Shown in pieces: positions 19,317-32,905 of a stretch of DNA of 64,000 bases (positions are counted from its first letter, which is position 1; each line of letters opens with the position of its first letter). The stretch lies in sequence record PP993145.1; one strand, written 5' to 3'. The DNA is from Escherichia phage phiP4. The translations under genes were made by a program, and so were the position numbers. Under the pieces are notes generated by a model. That model did no database searches. It saw nothing but the letters and a program-made list of their open reading frames with translations, and had not been told where the DNA came from.

Positions 19317-19511
19317 TTATACTTTTCCATAGTATACGGAAACTGTCTTACCAGTTTGGTTCATGACATATGCTACTTCATCTTCTTTTAAAAAGATGGC
19401 TTGGTCTACTCCAACTATAGCCAATCTTTTATTTCTAGGATTAAAGCTTACACTTTTGCCTGTATGAATCTGTTCCCCATTCTTGGCTGACATTATTTTA
19501 ATTGTTAACAT
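19317..19511 (-). CDS. hypothetical protein (64 aa)
   Basis: ORF track. Confidence 0.4.
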   Translation of the reverse strand: MLTIKIMSAKNGEQIHTGKSVSFNPRNKRLAIVGVDQAIFLKEDEVAYVMNQTGKTVSVYYGKV

Positions 19512-19548: not shown

Positions 19549-19624
19549 TGGTAGTTAGTAGTGGATTTGAACCACTGTAATCGCTCCGTATGAAGGAGGT
19601 GCATAACCGCTCTGCCAACTAACT
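19549..19624 (-). tRNA. tRNA-Met (anticodon CAT)
   Basis: Hand fold: 7-bp acceptor, T-arm, anticodon loop TTCATAC, encoded CCA. Confidence 0.65.
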
Positions 19625-19720
19625 ATTATGTTTTACTAGACTAAGTAAGTATTCTTTATACTCTTTAGTCCAATTAGCTTTTTTAAACTTTCCTGGACGC
19701 ATAGTCTTAATTCCTAAATT

Positions 19721-19797
19721 TGGTACTCCGGGAGGGATTTAAACCCCCGATCTCTCGGTTATCAGCCGAGTGCTTTAGATCGCTAAGCTACCGAAGT
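19721..19797 (-). tRNA. tRNA-Ile (anticodon GAT)
   Basis: Hand fold: acceptor with one G-U, anticodon loop CTGATAA, encoded CCA. Confidence 0.65.
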
Positions 19798-19798
19798 A

Positions 19799-20026
19799 TT
19801 AACATTTTACAGCAGAACGTTTGCCATTTCTAGGCGCACCTGGAAGTCGTGCACGTTCTGCCATTATTCGCTTAATCTTTGAGATATTTTCTAGTGTTTG
19901 TTTTTCAGGCTTAATACCTGAAACACTACACCACTGACTACCATCCCATGCGGTAATGATCATAACACCATTACTCATGATCTTTTCTGTGAAAGTAATC
20001 CTCATTATAGCAACTCGTCTAAGCAA
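19799..20026 (-). CDS. hypothetical protein (75 aa)
   Basis: ORF track. Confidence 0.4.
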   Translation of the reverse strand: MLRRVAIMRITFTEKIMSNGVMIITAWDGSQWCSVSGIKPEKQTLENISKIKRIMAERARLPGAPRNGKRSAVKC

Positions 20027-20298
20027 GAGGTATATTTAAGTTTACCATCTTTATCTACTTTGATTTCGACTTCCGCTCGTGGTACTTGACGAACTACACC
20101 ATGAATCATCTTATAGCGAATGCCTTTAGCTGGTTCATGCTCTTTTGGAAATACTTGCTTAACCGTTACTACCTTGAAACCCTCACGCGGTGTTAACACT
20201 ACTACTTGATCACCTTTTTTGATCTTCCAAGAGCTAGGAAATTCATAGGTATAGCGTTGACCACCAGTTTGGAACACAACAGAAAGATAACGTTTCAT
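20005..20298 (-). CDS. hypothetical protein (97 aa)
   Basis: ORF track; promoter 20329..20357 upstream. Confidence 0.5.
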   Translation of the reverse strand: MKRYLSVVFQTGGQRYTYEFPSSWKIKKGDQVVVLTPREGFKVVTVKQVFPKEHEPAKGIRYKMIHGVVRQVPRAEVEIKVDKDGKLKYTSCLDELL

Positions 20299-20328
20299 TT
20301 GGTTTCCCTCTCATTAATTTATATAAAT

Positions 20329-20357
20329 ATTATAACAAGAAATAAGAGAGAAAGCAA
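20329..20357 (-). promoter_or_regulatory. sigma70-type early promoter (TTGCTT-N17-TATAAT)
   Basis: Hexamers and spacer read directly. Confidence 0.6.
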
Positions 20358-20365
20358 ATGAATTT

Positions 20366-20533
20366 TTAATAGAGTTTAGTCACTTCATAAACTATACTAC
20401 GAGATTCTTTATTACGTTCTATTAAATTAGCGTATGCTTTTTCAGCTTCGTTTTTAGTATTAAAGTCTATAACGTGGGAGGTATTAGCTCTGTTTGATTG
20501 ACTATACCAGATAACTACTAGGAGTTTAAACAT
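20366..20533 (-). CDS. hypothetical small protein (track ORF 20366..20560 trimmed to an internal ATG)
   Basis: Track start would overlap the tRNA at 20548..20634. Confidence 0.35.
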   Translation of the reverse strand: MFKLLVVIWYSQSNRANTSHVIDFNTKNEAEKAYANLIERNKESRSIVYEVTKLY

Positions 20534-20547
20534 ACTAGTCCTTAAAT

Positions 20548-20634
20548 TGGTGCTGGGCACAGGATTCGAACCTGCAGTGGGATTACTCCTCCTGATTACA
20601 AATCAGGTGCATTCAACCATTCTGCCAACCCAGC
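20548..20634 (-). tRNA. tRNA with long variable arm; anticodon loop TTTGTAA, formally anticodon TGT (Thr)
   Basis: Hand fold: 7-bp acceptor, CCA, 3-bp D-stem, 15-nt variable arm; identity ambiguous. Confidence 0.5.
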
Positions 20635-20642
20635 AGAACCCG

Positions 20643-20807
20643 TTATTTCAACGGGATTTCTTTTTCAATAACAGGAGACTTATCAGTCATAACTGTCATT
20701 GCCATTTGTTGTAGAAATTCAAAGGTGAAGGCTACACGTTCTTCACCAATCTCTACTTCTACACGTTTCTTTTGTTTATCGATCTTGACTTTTAGGTTAT
20801 CAGCCAT
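20643..20807 (-). CDS. small hypothetical protein (about 54 aa, below track threshold)
   Basis: Hand-translated ORF between two tRNAs, overlapping the stop of 20800..21021. Confidence 0.35.
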   Translation of the reverse strand: MADNLKVKIDKQKKRVEVEIGEERVAFTFEFLQQMAMTVMTDKSPVIEKEIPLK

Positions 20808-21021
20808 CTTCGGGTTCTCGTTGCTGTGCTACTTCTAGCCAGTCTGGTAGAAGAAACTTTGTACGAAATTCTTCGTAAGTTTCTTTGGGATAAAAGCTAA
20901 AACCTCCTTTCTCATCATTCAGGATAACAGAGCCGTCCGTTTGTTCGTATGCTCGGTATGTTTCTCCAATAACAATAACTCGTTTATCGGTACTTTTATT
21001 ACGAAACTCAAAAACGTGCAT
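20800..21021 (-). CDS. hypothetical protein (73 aa)
   Basis: ORF track. Confidence 0.45.
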   Translation of the reverse strand: MHVFEFRNKSTDKRVIVIGETYRAYEQTDGSVILNDEKGGFSFYPKETYEEFRTKFLLPDWLEVAQQREPEDG

Positions 21022-21037
21022 AACGTTTCCTTAAAGT

Positions 21038-21113
21038 TGGAGCGGCTAGAGGGAATCGAACCCTACTCAGCGAGGCTTGGAAGGCCTGCGACACAACCCG
21101 TGTGCTTAACCGC
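21038..21113 (-). tRNA. tRNA-Gly (anticodon TCC)
   Basis: Hand fold: acceptor GCGGTTA/TAGCCGC, anticodon loop CTTCCAA, CCA. Confidence 0.6.
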
Positions 21114-21121
21114 TTATTATT

Positions 21122-21197
21122 TGGCTGGAGAAGGAGGAATCGAACCTACCATTAACGGAGTCAAAGGCCGTTGTGCTAACCGTTACACTACTCTCCA
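21122..21197 (-). tRNA. tRNA-Gln (anticodon TTG)
   Basis: Hand fold: anticodon loop CTTTGAC, CCA. Confidence 0.6.
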
Positions 21198-21203
21198 ATT
21201 GTT

Positions 21204-21279
21204 TGGCTGGGATGCCACGGATCGAACGTGGAACCTTCGGAGTCAGAGGCCGACGATCTGCCAATTGATCTACATCCCA
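21204..21279 (-). tRNA. tRNA-Gln (anticodon CTG)
   Basis: Hand fold: paralogous to previous tRNA, anticodon loop CTCTGAC, CCA. Confidence 0.6.
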
Positions 21280-21288
21280 AGAATGCTA

Positions 21289-21525
21289 TTAGCTAGATGC
21301 TGTTTCTACTGGCTGAGAAACAGCAGGCTGTTCTAACGTATCTGGTGCTGATACAGAGAAAAGAGCTTGTAATGCTGCAATATCACGCTCGTAAGTATCA
21401 ATACGAGTAGTAAGAGTATCTACCATCTGTTTATGGTAGGATAAGTTATTCTGAGATTCATCTCGAAGAGTTTGCAGTTCTGCAAGACGTGTTAACATAA
21501 TTTCACTAATTAAAGCATTACTCAT
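21289..21525 (-). CDS. hypothetical protein (78 aa)
   Basis: ORF track. Confidence 0.5.
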   Translation of the reverse strand: MSNALISEIMLTRLAELQTLRDESQNNLSYHKQMVDTLTTRIDTYERDIAALQALFSVSAPDTLEQPAVSQPVETASS

Positions 21526-21715
21526 TTGTTTCTCCTAAGTTTTCCTGTTCTTCTAAACGTTTGCCTTCATGATCTACTCGAATAACTCCGCATCCTTCGC
21601 AAATCACAACTGCACCATAACCTTCTTTGACCTCAGCTTCTGTAATCAAACCAGAAAGATCACCAGTATCTCTGCCCCACATATCAATGGAGCATTGTTT
21701 GCAGAAATCAGCCAT
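21518..21715 (-). CDS. hypothetical Cys-containing protein (65 aa)
   Basis: ORF track. Confidence 0.5.
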   Translation of the reverse strand: MADFCKQCSIDMWGRDTGDLSGLITEAEVKEGYGAVVICEGCGVIRVDHEGKRLEEQENLGETNE

Positions 21716-21740
21716 ATTTTATTTCCTATTTAAGTTAATT

Positions 21741-21817
21741 TGGGGTGGCTAGTGGAATTCGAATCCACATAGGCCTGATTCACAATCAGGATCATTAACC
21801 AATTATGATATAGCCAC
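21741..21817 (-). tRNA. tRNA-His (anticodon GTG)
   Basis: Hand fold: perfect acceptor GTGGCTA/TAGCCAC, anticodon loop TTGTGAA, CCA. Confidence 0.7.
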
Positions 21818-22186
21818 AATTGAAAACTCGCAGGGTTAGCGAAACCTTCCTCAATTAGCATGTTCTAGAATACTAATCAAGTTATCTCCTATTGCACGCA
21901 GCTCAAGACGAGTACGAATTTTCAATTGTGGCGGCTCTCAGAAACTCTTCTACTCTAGCTTTAGCAGCTTACTCCCGAACGCATGTCGGGGAAGTCTTAC
22001 CAAGAGCATCAAATAGCACCGTTACACTTTGAGCCATAGATGTATCAAGAAGCAGAAGGATTTGAACCTTCACGAGATAGACCAGTTATCTCAGCCGCTT
22101 TATGAGGTATGTTGCAGGGAGTGGATGTTCCCTATAAACCTTTTAGGCAGCCCCGTCTACCGATTCCGGCATACTTCAAGAATTTT

Positions 22187-22360
22187 TTATAAACCAGCAG
22201 AAGCCTCATTTAAAGCATCAACAATAGCTTCACGTTGGGTCATTCCATACCCGGTGGAATCTAGGTGTGGCAAATAAGCCATCCATCCCTTATCTGTTTC
22301 ATGAAGACATGCTTTAAATTTTTTACCATCCTTCATTGTTACAGTAACTGTTTTGCTCAT
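22187..22360 (-). CDS. small protein (57 aa) with HicB-like antitoxin fold signature
   Basis: Hand-translated MSKTVTVTMKDGKKFKACLHETDKGWMAYLPHLDSTGYGMTQREAIVDALNEASAGL; AAGGAA-type RBS. Confidence 0.4.
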   Translation of the reverse strand: MSKTVTVTMKDGKKFKACLHETDKGWMAYLPHLDSTGYGMTQREAIVDALNEASAGL

Positions 22361-22380
22361 AAGATTTCCTTATAGTTAAT

Positions 22381-22470
22381 TGGCAGAAGATAATGGAGTC
22401 GAACCATCACCGTATCGCTACAGCGGGCTGGTTTTCAAGACCAGTTACGTACCACTACGTCCTATCTTCT
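22381..22470 (-). tRNA. tRNA-Ser (anticodon TGA)
   Basis: Hand fold: class II, long variable arm, anticodon loop CTTGAAA, CCA. Confidence 0.65.
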
Positions 22471-22483
22471 AGTATTTATTATA

Positions 22484-22831
22484 CTAATAGTCACTCGTAC
22501 TAGTGAAGTTTTCTACTTTTCCACAGATTTTACAAGTCCTACGATGATAGTAGGTAATTTTTACTTTAGACCAGCCATCGTGATCATTACCTAGGTTTTC
22601 TGTTACTCCCCAAGTATGAGAACACTCATTTTCAATTTGCTTAGTAAGAGCGTTATAGCGAGTATAAAACTCCTCCTGAGCAATAGCAAATTCTTTCTGT
22701 AGTTTATCACGAGCAATAATAGCACGTTCCAGATATGTTAAATCAGGCATTCCAGCTTTTTCAGCAACATCTATAATCTTATCTTCATCTAAAGATGCTA
22801 AAAACTCTAGAGCTTTATCTTTTGTTAGCAT
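22484..22831 (-). CDS. hypothetical protein (115 aa)
   Basis: ORF track. Confidence 0.5.
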   Translation of the reverse strand: MLTKDKALEFLASLDEDKIIDVAEKAGMPDLTYLERAIIARDKLQKEFAIAQEEFYTRYNALTKQIENECSHTWGVTENLGNDHDGWSKVKITYYHRRTCKICGKVENFTSTSDY

Positions 22832-22850
22832 TATTATTACCTCAAGTGTT

Positions 22851-22941
22851 TGGCGGAAGAGGAGAGATTTGAACTCTCAAGCCGTTTTACCAGTCAGCCA
22901 CTTTCCAAGCGGTTTTCGTCACCAATTCGATTTGCTCTTCC
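22851..22941 (-). tRNA. tRNA-Ser (anticodon GGA)
   Basis: Hand fold: class II, long variable arm, anticodon loop TTGGAAA, CCA. Confidence 0.6.
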
Positions 22942-22974
22942 AATAATAAGATGATGCCTCTATCACACCAGGCA

Positions 22975-23053
22975 GTTACGCCTCGCTGGGATTCGAACCC
23001 ATTAAAACAGCTCAACCGAGATAGTAGGTTTAATTTACTCTGACCATCAAATT
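22975..23053 (-). pseudogene. tRNA-like remnant: T-arm (GGGTTCGAATCCC) with 3-prime acceptor half but no pairing 5-prime half
   Basis: The 13-mer GGGATTCGAACCC is duplicated 79 nt apart; no complementary acceptor strand found. Confidence 0.3.
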
Positions 23054-23130
23054 TGGTGCGTGACAAGGGATTCGAACCCTCAAAACCCGACTTCTAAGGA
23101 CGGTATGTATGCCAATTCCATCAATCACGC
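23054..23130 (-). tRNA. tRNA with Leu-type anticodon TAG but class I (short variable loop) architecture
   Basis: Hand fold: 7-bp acceptor GCGTGAT/GTCACGC, discriminator A, CCA, anticodon loop CTTAGAA, 5-nt variable loop. Confidence 0.5.
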
Positions 23131-23135
23131 ATATT

Positions 23136-23214
23136 TGGTGGAGAATAACGGAATCGAACCGTTCTGATGTCCTCGGTGCAAGCGAGGTGTCCACTCCATG
23201 CAGACCCATTCCCC
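23136..23214 (-). tRNA. tRNA-Ala (anticodon TGC)
   Basis: Hand fold: acceptor with G3:U70 pair, anticodon loop CTTGCAC, CCA. Confidence 0.65.
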
Positions 23215-23452
23215 AAATTCTTTAGTTTACTAAGGCTATTAGCTCGGCGTAACTACAGCACCTTCGCTTCGAGCGGAAGGAACTGCGTCATCTCGCAAAC
23301 CCAATACACTATTCAGTTGCCGCTGAATCTAGTGGACCAATCTAGAACTTCTCCCGAATCAGGGGGATCGTGCTTTTTGGCAGCCAGTCCTAGGTCGAGC
23401 TAATACCTTAGTGAACTATGATGAGGATTTCTCCTCATCAATTTATATAAAT

Positions 23453-23481
23453 ATTATAACAAGAAATTAAGCATCAAGCAA
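23453..23481 (-). promoter_or_regulatory. sigma70-type early promoter (TTGCTT-N17-TATAAT) upstream of a tRNA sub-cluster
   Basis: Hexamers and spacer read directly. Confidence 0.6.
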
Positions 23482-23500
23482 CTGCGTTTTTTCTTGAAAT

Positions 23501-23579
23501 TGGTAGATCGCCTGGGACTCGAACCCAGAACCTTCCGATTAAAAGTCGGATGCTACTAAACCTATTGAGCTAGCGATCT
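23501..23579 (-). tRNA. tRNA-Lys (anticodon TTT)
   Basis: Hand fold: perfect acceptor AGATCGC/GCGATCT, anticodon loop CTTTTAA, CCA. Confidence 0.7.
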
Positions 23580-23580
23580 A

Positions 23581-23748
23581 TTAGTAACCATTATACACTT
23601 CTTTAATAGAGTGGACTTTTAAGTAAGGGTGATTAGTACTAAACTCTACCATTACTTCATCCCAATTTTTACCATAATGAGCAAGTAAGGATTTTGATGT
23701 ATTCTTACCTAATCGTTTATCACTTACTACTAATCGAAATACTTTCAT
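23581..23748 (-). CDS. small hypothetical protein (about 55 aa, below track threshold)
   Basis: Hand-translated ORF between tRNA-Lys and the next tRNA. Confidence 0.35.
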   Translation of the reverse strand: MKVFRLVVSDKRLGKNTSKSLLAHYGKNWDEVMVEFSTNHPYLKVHSIKEVYNGY

Positions 23749-23768
23749 TTCGAAATCCTCTATTAAAA

Positions 23769-23846
23769 TGGAAGCGGGTGCAGGAATCGAACCTACCTCT
23801 TTCTAGCTTATGAGACTAGCGATCTCTACCAGAGATCTAACCCGCG
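23769..23846 (-). tRNA. tRNA with anticodon CAT (Met, initiator-like or Ile2)
   Basis: Hand fold: anticodon loop CTCATAA; position 1:72 unpaired (C/U), as in initiator tRNAs; CCA. Confidence 0.55.
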
Positions 23847-23852
23847 ATTATT

Positions 23853-23929
23853 TGGTCAGTGCGGCAGGACTCGAACCTGCGACCCGAAGCATCCAAGGCT
23901 CCCACGCTACCAACTGCGCTACGCACTGT
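23853..23929 (-). tRNA. tRNA-Pro (anticodon TGG)
   Basis: Hand fold: perfect acceptor CAGTGCG/CGCACTG, anticodon loop CTTGGAT, CCA. Confidence 0.7.
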
Positions 23930-24138
23930 TAATTTTTGTTAACTCACTTTATAAGATATATTATACAGAGAATTAAGCAGAATAGCAAATGAATTTTTAA
24001 TAAATTTACTTATTGTGTAGGCCACCTAGAGGCTATGAACCCCACGGCTGACAAAGAAGTTTGCGAGACTTCTCTTAAATGCCAGAATAGACCCGCCGAT
24101 CTATCGGAACCTACATAATAAGTAAACTTTATAGTGTC

Positions 24139-24258
24139 ATTCTAGACAGGACTCGAACCTGTTATCACTTGTGCGGACTTACGAGAACCATTCTTTCACT
24201 CGAATCGAACGAGCTTCTGCCCTCGCCAAGCTGGTTTCCCCATCAACCACGCTAGAAT
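24139..24258 (-). other. composite tRNA-like element (120 nt) with two T-arm hairpins and a D-arm-like hairpin
   Basis: Outer 7-bp acceptor-like pairing ATTCTAG/CTAGAAT spans 120 nt; no canonical anticodon arm found by hand. Confidence 0.3.
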
Positions 24259-24380
24259 GTTTGATTGTTTTCAGTGCAAGAGTCCGAGTCTTGGACACGA
24301 CCGCTTCGCAAGTACATAGGCAGCTTATCATGAGTCAGCACTTCCGAATTGCTAGCTCCGTGTTCTGCACTGAAATTTTA

Positions 24381-24728
24381 TTAGTTTAACCGTAAAGTAT
24401 TATCTACTTCACCATTAATTGTTCGGCATTCTTCTGGGATTGCCGGGGTAGCCTTATATTCCCACCACTCAGCACCATCATATTCCCCACGTTCTAACCA
24501 AGTTCCATCGGCAAACCATACATTACCATAAAGTAATTGTCCACCGTATCCAGAATCATATTCAAAGTCTAGGTTATTAAGAAAATCCTCAATATCTTCT
24601 TCTGTATAACCTAAAGGTAATACCCAAACTTTTTTATCCCCATAATACCCGAATTCTATTTTAATACACTTAACTTCAGAATTAGTATTTTTTAAGGCAA
24701 GTAACAACTCTTCTTTAGCATTACGCAT
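24381..24728 (-). CDS. hypothetical protein (115 aa)
   Basis: ORF track. Confidence 0.5.
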   Translation of the reverse strand: MRNAKEELLLALKNTNSEVKCIKIEFGYYGDKKVWVLPLGYTEEDIEDFLNNLDFEYDSGYGGQLLYGNVWFADGTWLERGEYDGAEWWEYKATPAIPEECRTINGEVDNTLRLN

Positions 24729-24753
24729 AATATATTCTCATACTGAATTAATT

Positions 24754-24830
24754 TGGCGCGACCGATGGGATTCGAACCCACATTCTCTCCCGTGACAGGG
24801 GAGTACCATTACCAAGCCAGCCCCGGTCGC
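24754..24830 (-). tRNA. tRNA-Asp (anticodon GTC)
   Basis: Hand fold: perfect acceptor GCGACCG/CGGTCGC, anticodon loop CTGTCAC, CCA. Confidence 0.7.
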
Positions 24831-24839
24831 ATGATCTGT

Positions 24840-25025
24840 TTATTCAGCTTTGAGTTTTTCAATAGCTGCATTAAGTTCTTTAAGAAACTCTTTTCGTACA
24901 TTAAGACGATTGAGACTTACTAGTATATCATGTTTAAGTTCTTCGATGTATTTCTTCTCAACTTCAATATTGTTGATAGTGCTATCACGATGAACTTCTA
25001 ACTGTGCAATTACATTCTTGGACAT
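24840..25025 (-). CDS. hypothetical coiled-coil protein (61 aa)
   Basis: ORF track. Confidence 0.4.
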   Translation of the reverse strand: MSKNVIAQLEVHRDSTINNIEVEKKYIEELKHDILVSLNRLNVRKEFLKELNAAIEKLKAE

Positions 25026-25052
25026 GCTTATTTCCTCAGTTATTAATGAAAA

Positions 25053-25125
25053 TGGTATCTGTGGCTGAATTCGATGTCAGCAATGATAGCTGGTTGGCTA
25101 CCGGTTTACTTAACTCTACACAGAA
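25053..25125 (-). other. non-canonical tRNA-like element (no U33 in candidate anticodon loop, 8-nt T-loop)
   Basis: 6-bp acceptor with encoded CCA; anticodon loop CAACCAG lacks U33. Confidence 0.3.
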
Positions 25126-25127
25126 TT

Positions 25128-25210
25128 TGGCGGGCCGTGTAGGATTCGAACCTACGTTGTCTTTCGACATGGATTAACAGTCCACCGCCAAACCGCTTGG
25201 CTAACGACCC
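25128..25210 (-). tRNA. tRNA with 13-nt variable arm and anticodon GTT (Asn as read; Tyr-like architecture)
   Basis: Hand fold: acceptor GGGTCGT/ACGGCCC, 3-bp D-stem, anticodon loop CTGTTAA, CCA. Confidence 0.5.
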
Positions 25211-25362
25211 TAAATTTATATTGCTGACTAGGATTTTCACCTAGACGGAGTTAGCACCGTAGCGTGTAGCGGCATACCTCTCCAAACCGTGCCTCATCTT
25301 TCAATTACGGAGACAGTGTTCCTACGCGTGCCTGAATTGATTTAACAATTCTTTCAGCAAAT

Positions 25363-25438
25363 TGGACGACCGCATGAGATTTGAACTCACATAAAAAGGA
25401 TTTGCAATCCTTCGCCTAAGCCATTCAGCCAACGGTCG
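25363..25438 (-). tRNA. tRNA-Cys (anticodon GCA)
   Basis: Hand fold: perfect anticodon stem AAGGA/TCCTT, loop TTGCAAA, CCA. Confidence 0.7.
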
Positions 25439-25505
25439 ATTTATTATCTTTCATAACGTGCAGCTACATGGTCGGAACCACAACACTTAAATCTAACTAA
25501 TCGTT

Positions 25506-25748
25506 TCATTTAACACGCTCCGGTAGATCTTCTAGTTTATATTCAGTAGCCACATTAGCAGCATCTAAAAGTAATCCCATGTGTTTAAGGATTTTAGTGA
25601 TAGATTCGCCTTTGGCTTCTTCTACGAAAGAACGTAGATGAACAAAGTCAATTCCACCGTCCATACCAGAGAAAATATTTAGTAAGCGAAGCATTACCAG
25701 CTTACGTTCATTCAATTCTTGTTCTGTCATGTTGCTTCTCCAGTTCAA
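25506..25748 (-). CDS. hypothetical protein (80 aa)
   Basis: ORF track; promoter 25760..25788 upstream. Confidence 0.5.
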   Translation of the reverse strand: MNWRSNMTEQELNERKLVMLRLLNIFSGMDGGIDFVHLRSFVEEAKGESITKILKHMGLLLDAANVATEYKLEDLPERVK

Positions 25749-25759
25749 TTTATATAATT

Positions 25760-25788
25760 ATTATACAGAACTTTTGGAAACTAAGCAA
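25760..25788 (-). promoter_or_regulatory. sigma70-type early promoter (TTGCTT-N17-TATAAT)
   Basis: Hexamers and spacer read directly. Confidence 0.6.
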
Positions 25789-26068
25789 CTACATTTTTTA
25801 AGAATTTGATGCCTTTCTTTTTCTTCTTATATTTCCACGTTAAGGGATTCTGTCGATTATGAACGCTTGAGATCTTCGTCTCGTCAAAGTTCTTCAATAT
25901 CATGTAATCACAAGATAATTGTTCTAGTGGAATGTGATCACCGTCAAAAGCGTATACATAAGGCTGTTGACTAGCACGATAATGATAGACTTTGTTAATT
26001 CTACGTTTCAGCGACTTATCCGCGCAGTAAATAAAGAAGTTTTCAGGATGCATCAGCAGCTCCTTCAA
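25781..26068 (-). CDS. hypothetical protein (95 aa)
   Basis: ORF track. Confidence 0.45.
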   Translation of the reverse strand: MKELLMHPENFFIYCADKSLKRRINKVYHYRASQQPYVYAFDGDHIPLEQLSCDYMILKNFDETKISSVHNRQNPLTWKYKKKKKGIKFLKNVVA

Positions 26069-26070
26069 TT

Positions 26071-26145
26071 TGGTGCACCCTGTTCGTATCGAACGAACCT
26101 CTCAAGCTCTTCAGGCAAGCGCTAATCCATCTCAGCTAAAGGTGC
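26071..26145 (-). tRNA. tRNA-Phe (anticodon GAA), weakly paired anticodon stem
   Basis: Hand fold: good acceptor and perfect T-arm; anticodon stem has two U-U mismatches; CCA. Confidence 0.45.
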
Positions 26146-26152
26146 AAATTTT

Positions 26153-26197
26153 TGGCAAACCTACTAGGACTCGAACCTAGACCGTACGGTTTTGGAG
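26153..26197 (-). other. minihelix-like element: T-arm plus acceptor-like stem with encoded CCA, no D or anticodon arm
   Basis: T-arm CTAGG-TTCGAGT-CCTAG followed by TAGGTTT-G-CCA; only a 5-bp partner 45 nt upstream. Confidence 0.25.
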
Positions 26198-26237
26198 ACC
26201 GACATGCTGTCCAGTAACACTCTAGGAATGCAGGAAT

Positions 26238-26314
26238 TGGCGTCCTGTGAGGGGATCGAACCCGCAAATCCTACCTTGAAAGGGTAGTGACTTTACCAGT
26301 TTGTCTAACAGGAC
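26238..26314 (-). tRNA. tRNA-Glu (anticodon TTC)
   Basis: Hand fold: perfect acceptor GTCCTGT/ACAGGAC, anticodon loop CTTTCAA, CCA. Confidence 0.65.
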
Positions 26315-26320
26315 TTAAAT

Positions 26321-26408
26321 TGGTGGGGAAAGATGGAGTCGAACCACCCGAGTCGCAATGACAACTGATTTACAGTCAGCTCTGCTACCACTTACAGAAT
26401 ATTTCCCC
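26321..26408 (-). tRNA. tRNA-Tyr (anticodon GTA)
   Basis: Hand fold: class II, acceptor GGGGAAA/TTTCCCC, anticodon loop CTGTAAA, CCA. Confidence 0.7.
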
Positions 26409-26487
26409 ATATTTAGAAGTATTCAAAAAATTCTCATTTAAACACTTTTAAATATGTTTCCAAATTAGATAAATATTATATCAAGTT

Positions 26488-26526
26488 TTATAGCACTGAG
26501 CAAGTCAAATTTTAAAGAACTTGCTC
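26488..26526 (-). terminator. 13-bp perfect hairpin (GCACTGAGCAAGT ... ACTTGCTCAGTGC), terminator-like, downstream of 26540..26815
   Basis: Perfect inverted repeat followed by A/U-rich sequence; overlaps a promoter-like -35. Confidence 0.4.
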
Positions 26527-26539
26527 AGTGCTGTATTAG

Positions 26540-26815
26540 TTAGTCGAACTTAGGAGTGACAGTTAAGGAGAATGGAAGTTCGAAAACTTCTTCACCCTCA
26601 TCACTAACAGTAATTACACGACCTTTAAGTTCAGACATTGAAATATCAATATCAGCTTTTGCATCTGGAGCCATGCCAGCTTCAACACATTTAGCTTTAA
26701 TTTCCGGTAGAAGTTCTACATCGTAGAAATAAAGCCATTCAATCTCACCTTCCCAGCCTTCCCAGGATTTACAGATTGCACTTTCAATACCAGCTGCTAT
26801 AACACGATTTTGCAT
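26540..26815 (-). CDS. hypothetical acidic protein (91 aa)
   Basis: ORF track. Confidence 0.5.
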   Translation of the reverse strand: MQNRVIAAGIESAICKSWEGWEGEIEWLYFYDVELLPEIKAKCVEAGMAPDAKADIDISMSELKGRVITVSDEGEEVFELPFSLTVTPKFD

Positions 26816-26905
26816 TCGTTAACTCCTCCATCAATTTATATAACTATTATACCAGAAATTTAAAGCAAAAGGCAAGTACATTTTTAAAAATTCTGTTTGG
26901 AAGAG

Positions 26906-27112
26906 CTAAACTCCAGACTCTTCAGCCAAGTCTAGACTAATAAGAGATATAGCCATAATTGCTGCTCCATGTTCTTTTTCTCCAGTTTCTTTAGCTAGAG
27001 TTATAATATCAAGAAATTGCTTATGAAAATCTGCAACCTCTTGAGTTAAACCCGCCTCAGCAATCATACCTTTAAGCATGAAACGTTGTGCGGTAATTTC
27101 AGGATTAGCCAT
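26906..27112 (-). CDS. hypothetical protein (68 aa)
   Basis: ORF track. Confidence 0.45.
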   Translation of the reverse strand: MANPEITAQRFMLKGMIAEAGLTQEVADFHKQFLDIITLAKETGEKEHGAAIMAISLISLDLAEESGV

Positions 27113-27272
27113 GTTGTTTCTCCAGTTTCATCTTTAATAGTCTACAAATAAAATCAATGTCTTCATCCGTGCCTAGATCTCTATCTTCAAGAGTTGCCTT
27201 GAAGTTTTTAGTCAATTCCATGAGAATAACTTCTCTAGAACGACGTGTTGGCGGAGGTGGATGTCTATACAT
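27105..27272 (-). CDS. small hypothetical protein (about 55 aa, below track threshold)
   Basis: Hand-translated ORF with 8-nt overlap onto the start of 26906..27112. Confidence 0.35.
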   Translation of the reverse strand: MYRHPPPPTRRSREVILMELTKNFKATLEDRDLGTDEDIDFICRLLKMKLEKQHG

Positions 27273-27287
27273 CTTATTTCCTTAATT

Positions 27288-27364
27288 TGGTAGGGGTGGT
27301 GGGATTCGAACCCACAAAACCTGAATTTTAAGTCCAGTACCTATGCCAATTCGATTACACCCCC
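27288..27364 (-). tRNA. tRNA with Leu-type anticodon TAA but class I (short variable loop) architecture
   Basis: Hand fold: acceptor GGGGGTG/CACCCCT with G1-U72, discriminator A, CCA, anticodon loop CTTAAAA. Confidence 0.5.
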
Positions 27365-27465
27365 ATGTAATCAGTTTATTAGTTGATACATATTATAGCC
27401 TAGTGAAAATCCTACTACTAATCCCACAAACCAACCAATATAATAATCTTTTAGTTTCACAGGTA

Positions 27466-27651
27466 TTATCCTCGTTCAATATCTAGGGAAATACCGCAGT
27501 TAGGATTAATACCTGTACCATTGCAATTTGCGCAAACCCAGATATTGCAAAAAGTATCTCCTGCTTCTGCATCAGAACTTTCACCAATTCCCCTACACTC
27601 AGGGCAGGCACATTCCTCTAGCTCTTGCTTGAGTTCTTGAAACTTGGACAT
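27466..27651 (-). CDS. Cys-rich zinc-ribbon-like small protein (61 aa)
   Basis: Paired CxxC motifs (CPEC ... CANC). Confidence 0.45.
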   Translation of the reverse strand: MSKFQELKQELEECACPECRGIGESSDAEAGDTFCNIWVCANCNGTGINPNCGISLDIERG

Positions 27652-27659
27652 ATAGTCTC

Positions 27660-27848
27660 CTAGTTAATTACTTTTGAGGCTTCTAAAGCATTGACGTAGT
27701 AAACATCTTCTACATTATACATATAGTCTACTACTTTGTCCATAGCATGGAGTTCAGATGTAGCCTTTACTAGTCTGTACCCTTGCTTAAACTCGTCCGA
27801 ATGTTCTCTATCTTGTGCAAATTTAACAGAAACTATGAATAATTCCAT
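27660..27848 (-). CDS. hypothetical protein (62 aa)
   Basis: ORF track. Confidence 0.4.
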   Translation of the reverse strand: MELFIVSVKFAQDREHSDEFKQGYRLVKATSELHAMDKVVDYMYNVEDVYYVNALEASKVIN

Positions 27849-27867
27849 TAGTTGTCCTTATTTAATT

Positions 27868-27945
27868 TGGTGGCTCCCCGAGGATTCGAACCTACGTACC
27901 TTCCGGTTATGAGCCGGGTGCTCATACCATATGAGCTTGAGAACC
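27868..27945 (-). tRNA. tRNA with anticodon CAT (third CAT tRNA; Met or Ile2), imperfect T-stem
   Basis: Hand fold: acceptor GGTTCTC/GGGAGCC, D-arm GCTC/GAGC, anticodon loop CTCATAA, CCA. Confidence 0.5.
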
Positions 27946-27951
27946 AAAATC

Positions 27952-28040
27952 TGGCGGAAGAAGTGGGAATCGAACCCACAAGGCTATATTTCAAGCCGAC
28001 AGATTAGCAATCTGCTGCAATACCGTTATGCTATTCTTCC
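27952..28040 (-). tRNA. tRNA-Ser (anticodon GCT)
   Basis: Hand fold: class II, perfect acceptor GGAAGAA/TTCTTCC, anticodon loop TTGCTAA, CCA. Confidence 0.65.
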
Positions 28041-28061
28041 GAATTTATAAGATATATTATA

Positions 28062-28580
28062 TTAGAAATTTAGCTTCATAGCAAGAAAATTTTTCAAGTT
28101 TTCGGTAGACATCTCATCCACATCTACAGGAGAAACAAAGCCGTTTAATTTTCTAGCAAATTTTTCACCTGCAGGGTCATTATCCCCGACAGCTACCAAT
28201 TTAAAAGGTAATAATTTCAGTTGCTTTAATAACGCTTTTCCTGGAGAAGAACCCAACATTGCCAGGGCTGGATAACCAGCGTTATGTAACGCAACTGCCT
28301 TAAATACAGATTCAGCAATCAATACTACTTTTTCATCTCCATTGAGAGTTTCTAGTCCCCATACACACTGGATAGTAGAATAAGTAAAATATTTAGCTTC
28401 AAATGGGCACTTACCATGACCTTTTGGAGCAGAAGGATTATACGTCTGATAGCCTCTCAACATCCCAGAGAAGTCATACAACGGGACTGTTAGCCATCCT
28501 TCCGGACTTAACCAGCAATGATATTTATCTGTATCAAATCCTCTAGATAAGAGGTGCTGTGTTAGCTCATCAACATTCAT
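28062..28580 (-). CDS. hypothetical protein (track ORF 28062..28631; start moved to ATG at 28580)
   Basis: Promoter -10 at 28611..28616 lies inside the track ORF; ATG at 28580 has a GAGAGG RBS. Confidence 0.5.
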   Translation of the reverse strand: MNVDELTQHLLSRGFDTDKYHCWLSPEGWLTVPLYDFSGMLRGYQTYNPSAPKGHGKCPFEAKYFTYSTIQCVWGLETLNGDEKVVLIAESVFKAVALHNAGYPALAMLGSSPGKALLKQLKLLPFKLVAVGDNDPAGEKFARKLNGFVSPVDVDEMSTENLKNFLAMKLNF

Positions 28581-31636: not shown

Positions 31637-32138
31637 TTTAAGTATTTTTAAGAACTCTCGTAAAAACTCTTAAAAATACAGACGATACCGGGAGAGTCAT
31701 AAGTCTCACTCATTAAGTATTTCAAGACAAAATACAGTAACGTCTATTATTTTCCAGTTTAAGTCAAGGTGACTTAGTGGTTATGTCCTGCGGTATATTG
31801 AGGACTCGGTTAGGCTTGGGGTCATGACTTCCCGCCTTTTGCTGCTACTCAACAGGAGTTATCGCGAATTACCTGTGCTATTGTGCACCATTAGTGACAT
31901 CTCTCATGTCAGCATTTCCCACTTTGTGGATAGCTTGAAAAACTACTCCGATATGGAGAAAGAACTTCACTATCCTAGAATACCTTCTAAAGTTCTTCTT
32001 TAGCCTGGACATAGTTAAATCGTAATAAAACTATTCAGCAGACTGGTTGGTTAGTCTGGAACCAACTACCGCGTGGTTTAGGCAGTGCGCAACTAACCTC
32101 GGAAGCTTTTACGTTAAAAGCATCAGTTATCCAGTTCT

Positions 32139-32210
32139 TACCGACCGTAGGATTCGAACCTACATCTTCCACCAGTTACGGCTTGATAATACCAATTATA
32201 CTAGGACGGC
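32139..32210 (-). other. tRNA-like element with acceptor and perfect T-arm but no recognisable anticodon arm
   Basis: T-arm GTAGG-TTCGAAT-CCTAC; acceptor 6/7 paired; no CCA. Confidence 0.3.
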
Positions 32211-32470
32211 AGTGTTACTACATAAGTGATTTCCACACCCCACTATTTATAAATTAGAGAAGAGTTTAAGGGAGAGGTTTCAGACGCCTCATTTTACACG
32301 TTCTAGCCACTAACCGGGATTGCCGCCCCCTGTGTACTAGTTTTACAACTAACCCACCGACTCTATTCAATGCGCTCCGGTTGGGATTCTGCACTCAGCG
32401 TAATCGGCTCGCTGTTCCCTAATTTATGAATATATTATACATAATTTATAAGCATTTAGCAAATGAATTT

Positions 32471-32905
32471 TTAGAAAAATTCACTAGCAATCAAAGCAGT
32501 TGTTTTACCGTCATAACGTCCAGGAAATTCTGCCTTAATAGTTTTCATTAAAAGAGCTTTGGTAATTCCTGGATTTAATTTAACCAGTTCTGCAAAATAC
32601 TCACGAATTTCAGTTTCAGTCAGTTGACTTGGCTGATACTCTTGCAGCATGGAATAAAGCAGTTGCTCATAGTCTACATCAGTAGGAACTTTCATACCAA
32701 CTTTAATAGCGCGCTGTTTTGCATTTTCTAGAGCCTTAATCTGAGCTTTCAGATAGGCTACGAACTCGGTTCGAGTAACAATGTCTTTATCAATACGTTG
32801 CAGATCACCAATCATGGTCTGAAGATTAAGTGCCCGCTCTTTATCACCGTGAGTACGTGCTAGACTAAGCAGTCCACGAAGGGTCATTAGGATATTTTCA
32901 CCCAT
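32471..32905 (-). CDS. hypothetical protein (144 aa)
   Basis: ORF track. Confidence 0.5.
   Translation of the reverse strand: MGENILMTLRGLLSLARTHGDKERALNLQTMIGDLQRIDKDIVTRTEFVAYLKAQIKALENAKQRAIKVGMKVPTDVDYEQLLYSMLQEYQPSQLTETEIREYFAELVKLNPGITKALLMKTIKAEFPGRYDGKTTALIASEFF

What the first reader, a model, noticed from the sequence alone, without database searches (positions are those of the whole stretch)
19549..27945. Three separate tRNAs with anticodon CAT
Copies at 19549..19624, 23769..23846 and 27868..27945 may correspond to elongator Met, initiator and lysidine-modified Ile2. The 23769 copy has an unpaired 1:72 position, as initiator tRNAs do.
Basis: partly seen in the sequence, partly recalled or inferred. 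Interest (0 to 1): 0.45.

Follow-up and report, generated by a model that had tools for sequence, protein, structure and literature searches.

The report
Phage T5-type Met, initiator, Ile2 tRNAs
The window is a T5-like phage, and its three tRNA genes with anticodon CAT are the already annotated T5 trio (elongator Met, initiator-type fMet, Ile2-type), so the finding is real but already known, although the copies depart from textbook tRNA rules.

Summary
Three CAT-anticodon tRNA genes lie at exactly the stated coordinates, all on the minus strand, inside a cluster of about 25 tRNAs in a T5-like phage (96% identical to Escherichia phage Stokescottia, Tequintavirus).

They are orthologues, in conserved gene order, of T5's annotated tRNAM(CAU), tRNAfM(CAU) "initiator tRNA fMet" and tRNAI2(CAU). 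They differ from T5 by 2, 1 and 2 bases.

- **A (19549-19624)** has the elongator tRNA-Met determinants.
- **B (23769-23846)** has an acceptor stem almost identical to E. coli tRNAfMet, A11-U24, and an unpaired C1·U72, the only unpaired 1:72 among the window's 25 tRNAs. It keeps only the middle pair (G30-C40) of the three G-C anticodon-stem pairs, and its discriminator is U73.
- **C (27868-27945)** has Ile2-like anticodon-stem features and IleRS elements. It has only one (C5-G68) of the two acceptor-stem pairs that E. coli TilS needs. It also has A8 and a bulged T stem, both conserved with compensatory changes.

Its "hallmark" checks pass only partly. The lysidine status of C remains unproven. 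Interest is low.

The parts
19549..19624 (-). tRNA A: elongator tRNA-Met(CAU), 76 nt, CCA encoded. A1-U72, U4-A69, A5-U68, C27-G43 with a bulged C after position 42, C30-G40, anticodon loop UUCAUAC, A73.
   Evidence: Rfam alignment, 51.2 bits. It differs by 2 bases from T5 tRNAM T5t01. It shares 36 of 60 core positions with E. coli tRNA-Met, against 28 with Ile2 and 27 with fMet.
23769..23846 (-). tRNA B: initiator-type tRNA(CAU), 78 nt, CCA encoded. C1·U72 mismatch, G2-C71, C3-G70, G4-C69, A11-U24, anticodon stem C27-G43/U28-A42/A29-U41/G30-C40/U31·G39, U73.
   Evidence: 1:72 flagged non-canonical. It differs by 1 base (position 1) from T5 tRNAfM T5t14, annotated 'initiator tRNA fMet'. It shares 41 of 60 core positions with E. 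coli tRNAfMet, against 33 with Met and 35 with Ile2. It is annotated tRNA-fMet in DaisyDussoix. It is 100% identical to the copy in Salmonella phage STG2.
27868..27945 (-). tRNA C: Ile2-type tRNA(CAU), 78 nt, CCA encoded. U3·G70, U4-A69, C5-G68, A8, U12-A23, C27·A43 mismatch, C29-G41, G30-C40, loop CUCAUAA, bulged U in the T stem, A73.
   Evidence: Its only differences from T5 tRNAI2 T5t23 are a compensatory change, G30-C40 here against A30-U40 in T5. The family alignment shows 5 pairs with compensatory changes, and the T-stem bulge is kept.
19721..19797 (-). tRNA-Ile(GAU), immediately upstream of tRNA A. Together with A, B and C it completes the set of decoders for the AUN codon box.
   Evidence: 65.5 bits. 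The arrangement is the same as T5 tRNAI1(GAU)-tRNAM.
23853..23928 (-). tRNA-Pro(UGG), 6 nt upstream of tRNA B. The pair is probably transcribed together.
   Evidence: The pair is the same as T5 tRNAP-tRNAfM.
27952..28040 (-). tRNA-Ser(GCU), 6 nt upstream of tRNA C. The pair is probably transcribed together.
   Evidence: The pair is the same as T5 tRNAS3-tRNAI2.
23960..23988 (-). Promoter-like site TTGCTA-17-TATAAT upstream of the Pro/B pair.
   Evidence: 10 of 12 matches. This is a consensus match only, and the region as a whole has no more such sites than its shuffles. T5 annotates promoters in the corresponding places.
28056..28084 (-). Promoter-like site TTGCTA-17-TATAAT upstream of the Ser/C pair.
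   Evidence: 10 of 12 matches. It corresponds in position to T5 promoter P15b, which overlaps the start of tRNAS3.

Best explanation
The window comes from a T5-like phage (Demerecviridae, Tequintavirus). The three CAT-anticodon genes are the phage's own decoders for AUG and AUA, and each is the orthologue of a T5 gene that is already annotated.

- **tRNA A** is an elongator tRNA-Met. Host MetRS should charge it. Its stems carry the pairs that make E. coli TilS reject a tRNA and TmcA accept it.
- **tRNA B** is an initiator-type tRNA. Host MetRS should charge it through the CAU anticodon. Host formyltransferase should formylate it because of the unpaired 1:72, the G2-C71/C3-G70/G4-C69 stack and A11-U24. 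It should be usable in the ribosomal P site because it keeps G30-C40, the one pair of the three-G-C motif shown to be essential in E. coli.
- **tRNA C** is an Ile2-type tRNA. Host TilS would convert C34 to lysidine, after which IleRS charges it and it reads AUA. AUA is used about 1.7 times more often in this phage than in E. coli.

What is shown here: the genes, their folds, the orthology, the conservation and the determinant patterns. What is inferred: charging, formylation, lysidine formation and use on the ribosome. No TilS- or formyltransferase-like gene was found among the window's larger ORFs, so host enzymes would have to do this work.
For: **Identity of the window**
- It is 96% identical to Tequintavirus genomes, and 1216 phage records match.

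**Orthology with T5**
- The gene order is the same as in T5: Ile(GAU)-Met, Pro-fMet, Ser(GCU)-Ile2. The sequences differ by 2, 1 and 2 bases.
- The T5 record labels them tRNAM, tRNAfM 'initiator tRNA fMet' and tRNAI2.
- A 2024 Nature paper on T5 names tRNAfMet in the same fragment as tRNAPro, tRNALys and tRNAVal. A review lists T5 tRNAIle1, Ile2, Met and fMet, and cites Chen et al. [quoted passage not shown]

**tRNA A**
- It has U4-A69 and A5-U68 (TilS antideterminants) plus C27-G43 and C30-G40 (TmcA determinants), as defined in PMC2500205.
- It is closest to E. coli tRNA-Met.

**tRNA B**
- Its acceptor 5' strand is CGCGGGU, against CGCGGGG in E. coli tRNAfMet (sequence verified).
- The formyltransferase elements, a 1-72 mismatch and R11:Y24 (PMC9976931), are both present.
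- 1:72 is U·U, C·U or U·C in every T5-like orthologue found, and never a Watson-Crick pair.
- G30-C40 alone suffices for initiator function in E. coli (PMC5389676).
- A relative in Pectobacterium phage DU_PP_V still has all three G-C pairs together with U1·U72 and A11-U24.

**tRNA C**
- Its C27·A43 mismatch and G30-C40 lack the TmcA determinants C27-G43 and C30-G40.
- It carries the IleRS elements A73, A37, U12-A23 and C29-G41.
- T4 tRNA-Ile(CAU) shares the non-Watson-Crick 27:43.
- A relative in Klebsiella phage BIS47 has the full C4-G69/C5-G68.
- Five pairs show compensatory change.

**Context**
- AUA occurs at 7.4 per 1000 codons and is 12% of Ile codons in 48 window ORFs.
- No TilS- or formyltransferase-like Pfam hit appears in 17 ORFs of at least 250 aa.
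Against: - **tRNA B** lacks two of the three G-C pairs. Its third pair is U31·G39, which is pyrimidine:purine, unlike the natural au/GC/gu variants. Its discriminator is U73 rather than A73, and it has U12-A23 where initiators have G12-C23 (Silva 2006).
- **tRNA C** has U4-A69, which is an antideterminant for E. coli TilS. Overall it is no closer to E. coli Ile2 than to Met. The DaisyDussoix annotation, and several other phage records in the match listing, call it tRNA-Met. Its A8 and T-stem bulge are abnormal for any tRNA.
- The T5 tRNA region can be deleted without loss of viability under laboratory conditions, so none of these tRNAs is essential.
- No modification, charging or formylation data could be examined here. 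The 1975 paper is not held in the library.
Confidence: 0.78

Rival explanations
1. tRNA C is not lysidinylated in E. coli or Salmonella. It works as a second elongator tRNA-Met (an unmodified tRNA-Ile2 is charged by MetRS and reads AUG), or it is only partly modified.
For: - U4-A69 is the tRNA-Met-type pair that E. coli TilS reads as an antideterminant, and EcTilS relies on 4:69 and 5:68.
- C shares 39 of 60 core positions with both E. coli Met and Ile2.
- DaisyDussoix and other records annotate it as tRNA-Met.
- An unmodified CAU tRNA-Ile2 accepts Met (PMC9976931; Silva 2006).
Against: - The phage already has a dedicated elongator Met (tRNA A) with the full Met-type determinant set.
- C lacks the critical TmcA determinant C27-G43. 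It carries C5-G68, C29-G41, U12-A23, A37 and A73.
- Relatives of C in other phages have C4-G69/C5-G68.
- The unrelated CAT tRNA that replaces C at the same locus in some T5-like phages also has U4-A69/C5-G68 and G27·A43. This suggests the combination is tolerated.
- The curated T5 and BF23 records call it Ile2.
Confidence: 0.22
2. tRNA B is not used mainly to start translation. It is kept because it resists host nucleases that destroy the cellular initiator (a spare that matters only under defence), or it serves as a decoy.
For: - Its anticodon stem differs from the host initiator at four of five pairs. This includes position 39 (G instead of C) at the enteric VapC cut site A38^C39, and positions 27-29, where P2 OLD cuts host fMet(CAU).
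- T5 tRNA-Lys protects against PARIS in exactly this way.
- In an IMG/VR sample the AU/GC/UG stem is the commonest state among 64 distinct initiator-like phage tRNAs.
- The T5 tRNA region is dispensable in the laboratory.
Against: - This reading is about why the gene is kept, not what it is. A nuclease-resistant spare would still have to act as an initiator.
- No cleavage data exist for this tRNA.
- The eLife analysis states that phages generally avoid encoding tRNA-fMet where VapC targets it.
- The IMG/VR sample was selected with a pattern that fixes the T loop and the acceptor 3' strand, so it is not unbiased.
Confidence: 0.2
3. One or more of the three is a decaying pseudo-tRNA. C has a T-stem bulge, A8 and a 27:43 mismatch. 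A has a bulged C in the anticodon stem and a weak D stem.
For: - The Rfam scores are low compared with neighbouring tRNAs (40-51 bits against up to 65).
- Default ARAGORN misses C.
- The fold of A is no more stable than its shuffles (z = -0.89).
Against: - The odd features are conserved across genera (Tequintavirus, Epseptimavirus, Sugarlandvirus, Hongcheonvirus, Mydovirus) while the surrounding pairs covary. The pair 49:65 is C-G or G-C, and the bulged base is U or C.
- A's relative in DU_PP_V has a different, fully paired anticodon stem but the same UUCAUAC loop.
- All three keep an encoded CCA.
- According to the T5 record's notes, the Ile2 homologue works as an amber suppressor after its anticodon is changed.
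Confidence: 0.04

Closest known systems
Phage T5 tRNAM(CAU) T5t01, tRNAfM(CAU) T5t14 and tRNAI2(CAU) T5t23 (NC_005859), and the BF23 equivalents
   Same: Same gene order and neighbours, same lengths, and 2, 1 and 2 base differences. These are the same three genes in a sister phage.
   Different: - tRNA B has C1 where T5 has U1, so 1:72 is C·U instead of U·U.
- tRNA C has G30-C40 where T5 has A30-U40.
- tRNA A differs in one D-loop base and one variable-loop base.
E. coli initiator tRNAfMet (metZWV, metY)
   Same: CAU anticodon and loop CUCAUAA. Acceptor stem positions 1-6 identical (CGCGGG). Position 1:72 unpaired. A11-U24. G30-C40. 41 of 60 core positions identical.
   Different: - 1:72 is C·U, not C·A.
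- The discriminator is U73, not A73.
- 29:41 is A-U and 31:39 is U·G instead of G-C.
- 12:23 is U-A, not G-C.
- The variable loop has 6 nt.
- The T loop is UUCGAUU.
Natural and engineered au/GC/gu initiator variants (mycoplasmas, alpha-proteobacteria; PMC5389676)
   Same: Only the middle G30-C40 pair of the three-G-C motif is kept. Such tRNAs sustain E. coli growth.
   Different: The third pair here is U31·G39 (pyrimidine on the 5' side), not G31·U39. That exact combination was not among those described in the passages read.
E. coli tRNA-Ile2 (ileX/ileY) and phage T4 tRNA-Ile(CAU)
   Same: CAU anticodon, loop CUCAUAA, C5-G68, U12-A23, C29-G41, G30-C40 (as in E. coli), a non-Watson-Crick 27:43, and A73.
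   Different: - 3:70 is U·G and 4:69 is U-A, instead of C-G and C-G.
- Position 8 is A, not U.
- The T stem has a one-base bulge.
- 27:43 is C·A rather than G·U or G·A.
E. coli elongator tRNA-Met (metT/metU)
   Same: tRNA A shares U4-A69, A5-U68, C27-G43, C30-G40 and A73, and 36 of 60 core positions.
   Different: - tRNA A has A1-U72 and U3-A70.
- Its loop is UUCAUAC (U32 and C38, instead of C32 and A38).
- It has a bulged C in the anticodon stem.
- Its D stem has 3 Watson-Crick pairs plus a G13·A22 mismatch.
- It has A44, not G44.

Membership tests
Bacterial initiator tRNA (tRNAfMet), tested on tRNA B | CAU anticodon in a CUCAUAA loop | tested here: met
Bacterial initiator tRNA (tRNAfMet), tested on tRNA B | No Watson-Crick pair at 1:72 (formyltransferase determinant; canonical form C1xA72) | tested here: met
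   The pair is C1·U72. B is the only one of 25 tRNAs in the window with this feature. Orthologues have U·U, C·U or U·C. The base combination differs from the canonical C·A.
Bacterial initiator tRNA (tRNAfMet), tested on tRNA B | Purine11:pyrimidine24 (A11-U24), plus G12-C23 according to Silva 2006 | tested here: inconclusive
   A11-U24 is present. 12:23 is U-A, not G-C.
Bacterial initiator tRNA (tRNAfMet), tested on tRNA B | Three consecutive G-C pairs at 29:41, 30:40 and 31:39 | tested here: not met
   The pairs are A-U / G-C / U·G. Only G30-C40 is kept, which is the pair reported as essential and sufficient in E. coli.
Bacterial initiator tRNA (tRNAfMet), tested on tRNA B | G2-C71, C3-G70 and G4-C69 with A73. 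The acceptor-stem formylation determinants come from my own recollection of Lee 1991 and Guillon 1992, which are cited in PMC9976931. | tested here: inconclusive
   The three pairs are present. The discriminator is U73, not A73.
Bacterial initiator tRNA (tRNAfMet), tested on tRNA B | Formylation of Met-tRNA and use in the P site at initiation | not testable with these tools
   The only support is the T5 annotation and the title of Chen et al. 1975. That paper is not held.
Lysidine-dependent tRNA-Ile2, tested on tRNA C | C4-G69 and C5-G68, the two major identity pairs for E. coli TilS | tested here: not met
   4:69 is U-A, the tRNA-Met-type antideterminant. 5:68 is C-G. One of the two pairs is met.
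Lysidine-dependent tRNA-Ile2, tested on tRNA C | Absence of the TmcA (ac4C) determinants C27-G43 and C30-G40 of tRNA-Met | tested here: met
   27:43 is a C·A mismatch and 30:40 is G-C.
Lysidine-dependent tRNA-Ile2, tested on tRNA C | IleRS elements: A73, A37 (t6A site), U12-A23, C29-G41 and C4-G69 | tested here: inconclusive
   All are present except C4-G69.
Lysidine-dependent tRNA-Ile2, tested on tRNA C | k2C34 present, charged with Ile, reads AUA | not testable with these tools
   No modification or charging data are available here.
Lysidine-dependent tRNA-Ile2, tested on tRNA C | Closer to Ile2 than to Met by overall sequence or an isotype model | tested here: inconclusive
   C shares 39 of 60 positions with each E. 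coli reference, and 27 against 25 of 46 in the stems. tRNAscan-SE and TFAM isotype models are not available here.
Elongator tRNA-Met, tested on tRNA A | CAU anticodon, Watson-Crick 1:72, and A73 | tested here: met
   A1-U72 and A73.
Elongator tRNA-Met, tested on tRNA A | TilS antideterminants U4-A69 and A5-U68 | tested here: met
   Both are present.
Elongator tRNA-Met, tested on tRNA A | TmcA determinants C27-G43, C30-G40 and G44 | tested here: inconclusive
   C27-G43 is formed only if one C is bulged out. C30-G40 is present. Position 44 is A, not G.

The most novel reading that the evidence does not exclude
tRNA B may belong to a wide, phage-specific clade of initiator-like CAU tRNAs. The clade has shed the flanking G-C pairs of the three-G-C motif and kept only what E. 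coli initiation strictly needs: G30-C40, an unpaired 1:72 and A11.

In a pattern-selected IMG/VR sample of 64 distinct sequences:
- AU/GC/UG is the commonest anticodon-stem state (22 sequences), and the canonical GC/GC/GC is found in only 9.
- G30-C40 is kept in 60.
- 1:72 is a non-Watson-Crick mismatch in 50.

The changed positions coincide with the sites where initiator-directed nucleases cut: VapC at A38^C39, and P2 OLD after nucleotides 27-29. The clade could therefore be a nuclease-proof spare initiator.

A second open point is that tRNA C carries a TilS antideterminant. It may be decoded or modified differently from host tRNA-Ile2.
Probability: 0.25. Interest if true: 0.55.

Novelty: already known. 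Interest (0 to 1): 0.2.

Why it matters
As found, it matters little. It re-identifies the Met, fMet and Ile2 tRNA trio that has been annotated in phage T5 for about twenty years. The T5 Met and fMet tRNAs were described in 1975.

It is a useful caution for annotation:
- Default ARAGORN misses tRNA C.
- Many GenBank records label all three as tRNA-Met.
- The textbook hallmarks (three G-C pairs, C4-G69/C5-G68) do not hold for phage copies.

If the nuclease-evasion reading of the degenerate initiator stem were confirmed, it would extend the current picture of phage tRNAs as counter-defence (PARIS, the Eco7 retron, OLD) to the initiator tRNA.

Tried and rejected
- **Default ARAGORN** missed tRNA C. 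It needed Rfam or a relaxed threshold.
- **Overall-similarity classification**, in the manner of Silva 2006 and using E. coli and T4 references, separates A (Met) and B (fMet) cleanly. It is a tie for C, so it was rejected as a way to decide C.
- **The Silva 2006 reference alignments** would have allowed profile classification, but they are not held.
- **Isotype-specific covariance models** (tRNAscan-SE 2.0, TFAM) are not available. I did not build my own because I had no independent labelled training set, and models built from the phage families would be circular.
- **Chen et al. 1975 and Winther & Gerdes 2011** could not be read. The VapC cut site was taken from a citing paper.
- **A phage-encoded TilS or formyltransferase** was looked for among the 17 window ORFs of at least 250 aa, the YqeY-like 'tRNA amidotransferase' ORF and the small ORFs next to the tRNAs. 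None was found.
- **The promoter scan** over the region gives no more sites than its shuffles. Only the two 10/12 sites directly upstream of the tRNA pairs are reported, as consensus matches.
- **The non-CAT sequences** retrieved by the same IMG/VR pattern were considered as a control for 1:72 mismatch. They were rejected because several are CAU tRNAs with atypical loops.

Full report
**1. Observation**

ARAGORN finds 22 tRNA genes between 19.5 and 31.7 kb, all on the minus strand. Two have anticodon CAT, at 19549-19624 and 23769-23846.

- 51.2 bits at 19552-19624
- 42.1 bits at 23772-23846
- 40.3 bits at 27871-27945

The gathering score is 29. The third gene is missed by default ARAGORN but is called as tRNA(cat), 78 nt, at a relaxed threshold. 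Each sequence folds to a cloverleaf as its minimum-free-energy structure, and each encodes CCA. The coordinates are exact, and only the strand (minus) needs to be added.

I call the genes A (19549-19624), B (23769-23846) and C (27868-27945).

**2. What the window is**

The tRNA region is 96% identical to Escherichia phage Stokescottia and other Tequintavirus and Epseptimavirus genomes. 1216 phage records match it.

The curated RefSeq record of phage T5 has the same gene order:
- tRNAI1(GAU)-tRNAM(CAU)
- tRNAP(UGG)-tRNAfM(CAU), annotated 'initiator tRNA fMet'
- tRNAS3(GCU)-tRNAI2(CAU)

Compared with these T5 genes:
- A differs by 2 bases.
- B differs by 1 base, at position 1.
- C differs by 2 bases, a compensatory change that gives G30-C40 here and A30-U40 in T5.

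A 2024 paper on T5 refers to the same tRNAfMet gene and shows that this tRNA region can be deleted in the laboratory. A review lists T5 tRNAIle1, Ile2, Met and fMet, and cites Chen et al. [quoted passage not shown] I could not read that paper. The trio is therefore already known.

**3. tRNA A**

The Infernal alignment gives:
- A1-U72, U4-A69 and A5-U68
- a three-pair D stem
- an anticodon stem C27-G43 / C28-G42 / U29-A41 / C30-G40 / C31-G39, with one bulged C after position 42
- the loop UUCAUAC
- A73

In E. coli, U4-A69 and A5-U68 are the pairs that make TilS reject tRNA-Met. C27-G43 and C30-G40 are the pairs that make the acetyltransferase TmcA accept it (PMC2500205). A shares 36 of 60 core positions with E. 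coli tRNA-Met, against 28 with Ile2 and 27 with fMet.

A relative in Pectobacterium phage DU_PP_V has a different, fully paired anticodon stem but the same unusual loop.

Conclusion: A is an elongator tRNA-Met.

**4. tRNA B**

Features:
- The acceptor 5' strand is CGCGGGU. E. coli tRNAfMet, whose sequence I verified, has CGCGGGG.
- 1:72 is C·U, flagged non-canonical by Infernal. Of 25 tRNA-like genes in the window, it is the only one without a Watson-Crick or G·U 1:72 pair.
- In T5-like orthologues, 1:72 is U·U (most), C·U (this window, Salmonella phage STG2 and two IMG/VR contigs) or U·C. It is never a Watson-Crick pair.
- A11-U24 is present. The 1-72 mismatch and R11:Y24 are the formyltransferase recognition elements (PMC9976931).
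- B shares 41 of 60 core positions with E. coli tRNAfMet, against 33 with Met and 35 with Ile2.
- Escherichia phage DaisyDussoix annotates it as tRNA-fMet.

Against canonical membership:
- The anticodon stem is A29-U41 / G30-C40 / U31·G39, so two of the three G-C pairs are missing.
- The discriminator is U73.
- 12:23 is U-A.

Systematic mutagenesis in E. coli showed that the middle pair G30-C40 is the essential one, and that au/GC/gu variants sustain growth (PMC5389676). The DU_PP_V relative still has G29-C41 / G30-C40 / G31-C39 together with U1·U72 and A11-U24. This ties the family to true initiators.

Conclusion: B is initiator-type and plausibly works as an initiator, but it is not a textbook tRNAfMet.

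**5. tRNA C**

Structure:
- G1-C72, G2-C71, U3·G70, U4-A69, C5-G68, U6·G67, C7-G66
- A8 instead of the usual U8
- D stem GCUC/GAGC, giving U12-A23
- C27·A43 mismatch, C28-G42, C29-G41, G30-C40, G31-C39
- loop CUCAUAA
- T stem CG(U)AGG/CCUCG with one bulged U
- A73

Homologues occur in Epseptimavirus, Sugarlandvirus, Hongcheonvirus and the myovirus BIS47. They keep A8, the unpaired 27:43 and the bulge (U or C). Five pairs show compensatory change, at 4:69, 28:42, 30:40, 31:39 and 49:65. C is therefore a functional gene under selection, not a decaying copy.

Features pointing to Ile2:
- It has no C27-G43, which is TmcA's critical determinant, and it has G30-C40.
- It has the IleRS elements A73, A37, U12-A23 and C29-G41.
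- T4 tRNA-Ile(CAU) also has a non-Watson-Crick 27:43.
- The BIS47 homologue has C4-G69/C5-G68.
- The phage already has a separate Met elongator.

Features pointing away from Ile2:
- E. coli TilS relies on 4:69 and 5:68. C has U4-A69, the antideterminant, next to C5-G68.
- Overall similarity is a tie, 39 of 60 positions with both E. coli Met and Ile2.
- The DaisyDussoix annotation and several other phage records label it tRNA-Met.

Conclusion: C is Ile2-type by determinant pattern, position and curated annotation. Lysidine formation is not shown.

**6. Context**

- In 48 window ORFs of at least 120 codons, AUA occurs at 7.4 per 1000 codons and makes up 12% of Ile codons. From memory, the E. coli K-12 figures are about 4.4 per 1000 and 7%.
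- CUA, UUA and AGA are also common in the window. I recall all three as rare or less used in E. coli. The phage carries matching tRNAs.
- No TilS- or formyltransferase-like domain appears in 17 ORFs of at least 250 aa, or in the ORFs next to the tRNAs. Host enzymes must therefore act on these tRNAs, at least as far as this 64-kb window shows.
- B and C each sit 6 nt downstream of another tRNA (Pro and Ser respectively). Each pair is preceded by a TTGCTA-17-TATAAT site. T5 annotates promoters in the corresponding places.

**7. A wider look at tRNA B's relatives**

I scanned IMG/VR with a pattern that fixes the T loop and the acceptor 3' strand. Among them are 64 distinct CAU tRNAs:

| Feature | Count out of 64 |
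|---|---|
| 1:72 non-Watson-Crick mismatch (U·U 23, C·A 11, C·U 7, A·A 6, U·C 2, G·G 1) | 50 |
| 1:72 G·U | 3 |
| Stem 29:41 / 30:40 / 31:39 = AU/GC/UG | 22 |
| Stem = GC/GC/UG | 14 |
| Stem = GC/GC/GC | 9 |
| Stem = AU/GC/GC | 8 |
| G30-C40 kept | 60 |
| A11 | 53 |

Relatives also occur outside Demerecviridae, for example an unannotated copy in Salmonella phage SE131 of the Grimontviridae.

The sample is biased by the pattern. It still shows that the degenerate stem of B is a common phage state and not a T5 oddity.

The changed positions coincide with the cut sites of nucleases that target the host initiator:
- Enteric VapC cuts between A38 and C39.
- P2 OLD depletes fMet(CAU) by cutting after nucleotides 27-29.

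T5 tRNA-Lys is known to neutralise PARIS through anticodon-stem changes. That B is a nuclease-resistant spare initiator is therefore a reasonable hypothesis, but it is untested.

**8. Verdict**

- The 1:72 mismatch is there.
- The three G-C pairs are not.
- The TilS pairs are half present.

Confidence by gene:
- A is an elongator Met: about 0.9.
- B is an initiator-type tRNA: about 0.75.
- C is a lysidine-dependent Ile2: about 0.6.

Novelty: already known. Interest: low (0.2). There is a modest upside if the degenerate initiator stem proves to be a counter-defence adaptation, or if C proves not to be a TilS substrate.

Noticed in passing
window 20548-20634 (-), 25128-25210 (-): tRNA-Thr(UGU) is 87 nt and tRNA-Asn(GUU) is 83 nt, and both have long variable arms. 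They are not orthologues of T5's 75-nt Thr and 78-nt Asn (the sequences are unrelated). This looks like non-orthologous replacement within the cluster. Stokescottia annotates tRNA-Thr and tRNA-Asn genes of the same lengths.
   Followed up: partly
window 23054-23130 (-), 27288-27364 (-): Both Leu tRNAs (UAG and UAA) are 77 nt with a short variable region. They are class-I-like, unlike bacterial Leu tRNAs and unlike T5's 85-nt tRNA-Leu(UAG).
   Followed up: no
window 32138-32211 (-): A tRNA-like element with no encoded CCA. It scores 35.5 bits in Rfam. ARAGORN finds it only at a relaxed threshold, as 'Ser(act)'. Stokescottia labels it tRNA-OTHER, and it lies within the region T5 annotates as stable 'RNAX'.
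   Followed up: no
window 21038-21113 (-), 22381-22470 (-), 23136-23214 (-): Detection differs between tools. Gly(UCC) is identical to T5 tRNAG1 but falls below both default ARAGORN and the Rfam gathering score. Ser(UGA) and Ala(UGC) are found by ARAGORN but not by Rfam at its gathering score. T5's Val(UAC) and Ser(GGA) are absent from the window.
   Followed up: partly
L004:8851-8925, L011:8809-8883, L013:7739-7813, L018:8941-9015: In some T5-like phages, the C-type tRNA after Ser(GCU) is replaced at the same locus by an unrelated 75-nt CAT tRNA (GGGTCGGTAGCTT...). It has G3-C70, U4-A69, C5-G68 and G27·A43, so it repeats C's unusual 4:69/5:68 combination.
   Followed up: no
L084:1829-1906 (Salmonella phage SE131), L083:9000-9076 (Proteus phage PL1): Initiator-like CAU tRNAs related to B sit unannotated in these GenBank records. 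One is in a phage of a different family, Grimontviridae. Their 1:72 is U·C and U·U respectively.
   Followed up: partly
window 23769-23846 (-), 27868-27945 (-): The D arms of B (GAUCUCU-GGU-AGAGAUC) and C (GCUCAUA-UGG-UAUGAGC) can each extend to a 7-bp stem with a 3-nt loop in thermodynamic folding. This is unusual for tRNAs.
   Followed up: no
window 32471-32905 (-): A 144-aa ORF at the edge of the tRNA cluster matches phrog_1460 'tRNA amidotransferase' (E 1.6e-41). Its match to Pfam YqeY is weak and below the curated cutoff. Its role with respect to the phage tRNAs is unknown.
   Followed up: partly
window 19317-19511 (-), 23581-23748 (-), 27660-27848 (-): Each CAT tRNA is followed within about 20-40 nt by a purine-rich, Shine-Dalgarno-like stretch and a small conserved ORF of unknown function (phrog_3909, phrog_6221, phrog_10617).
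   Followed up: partly
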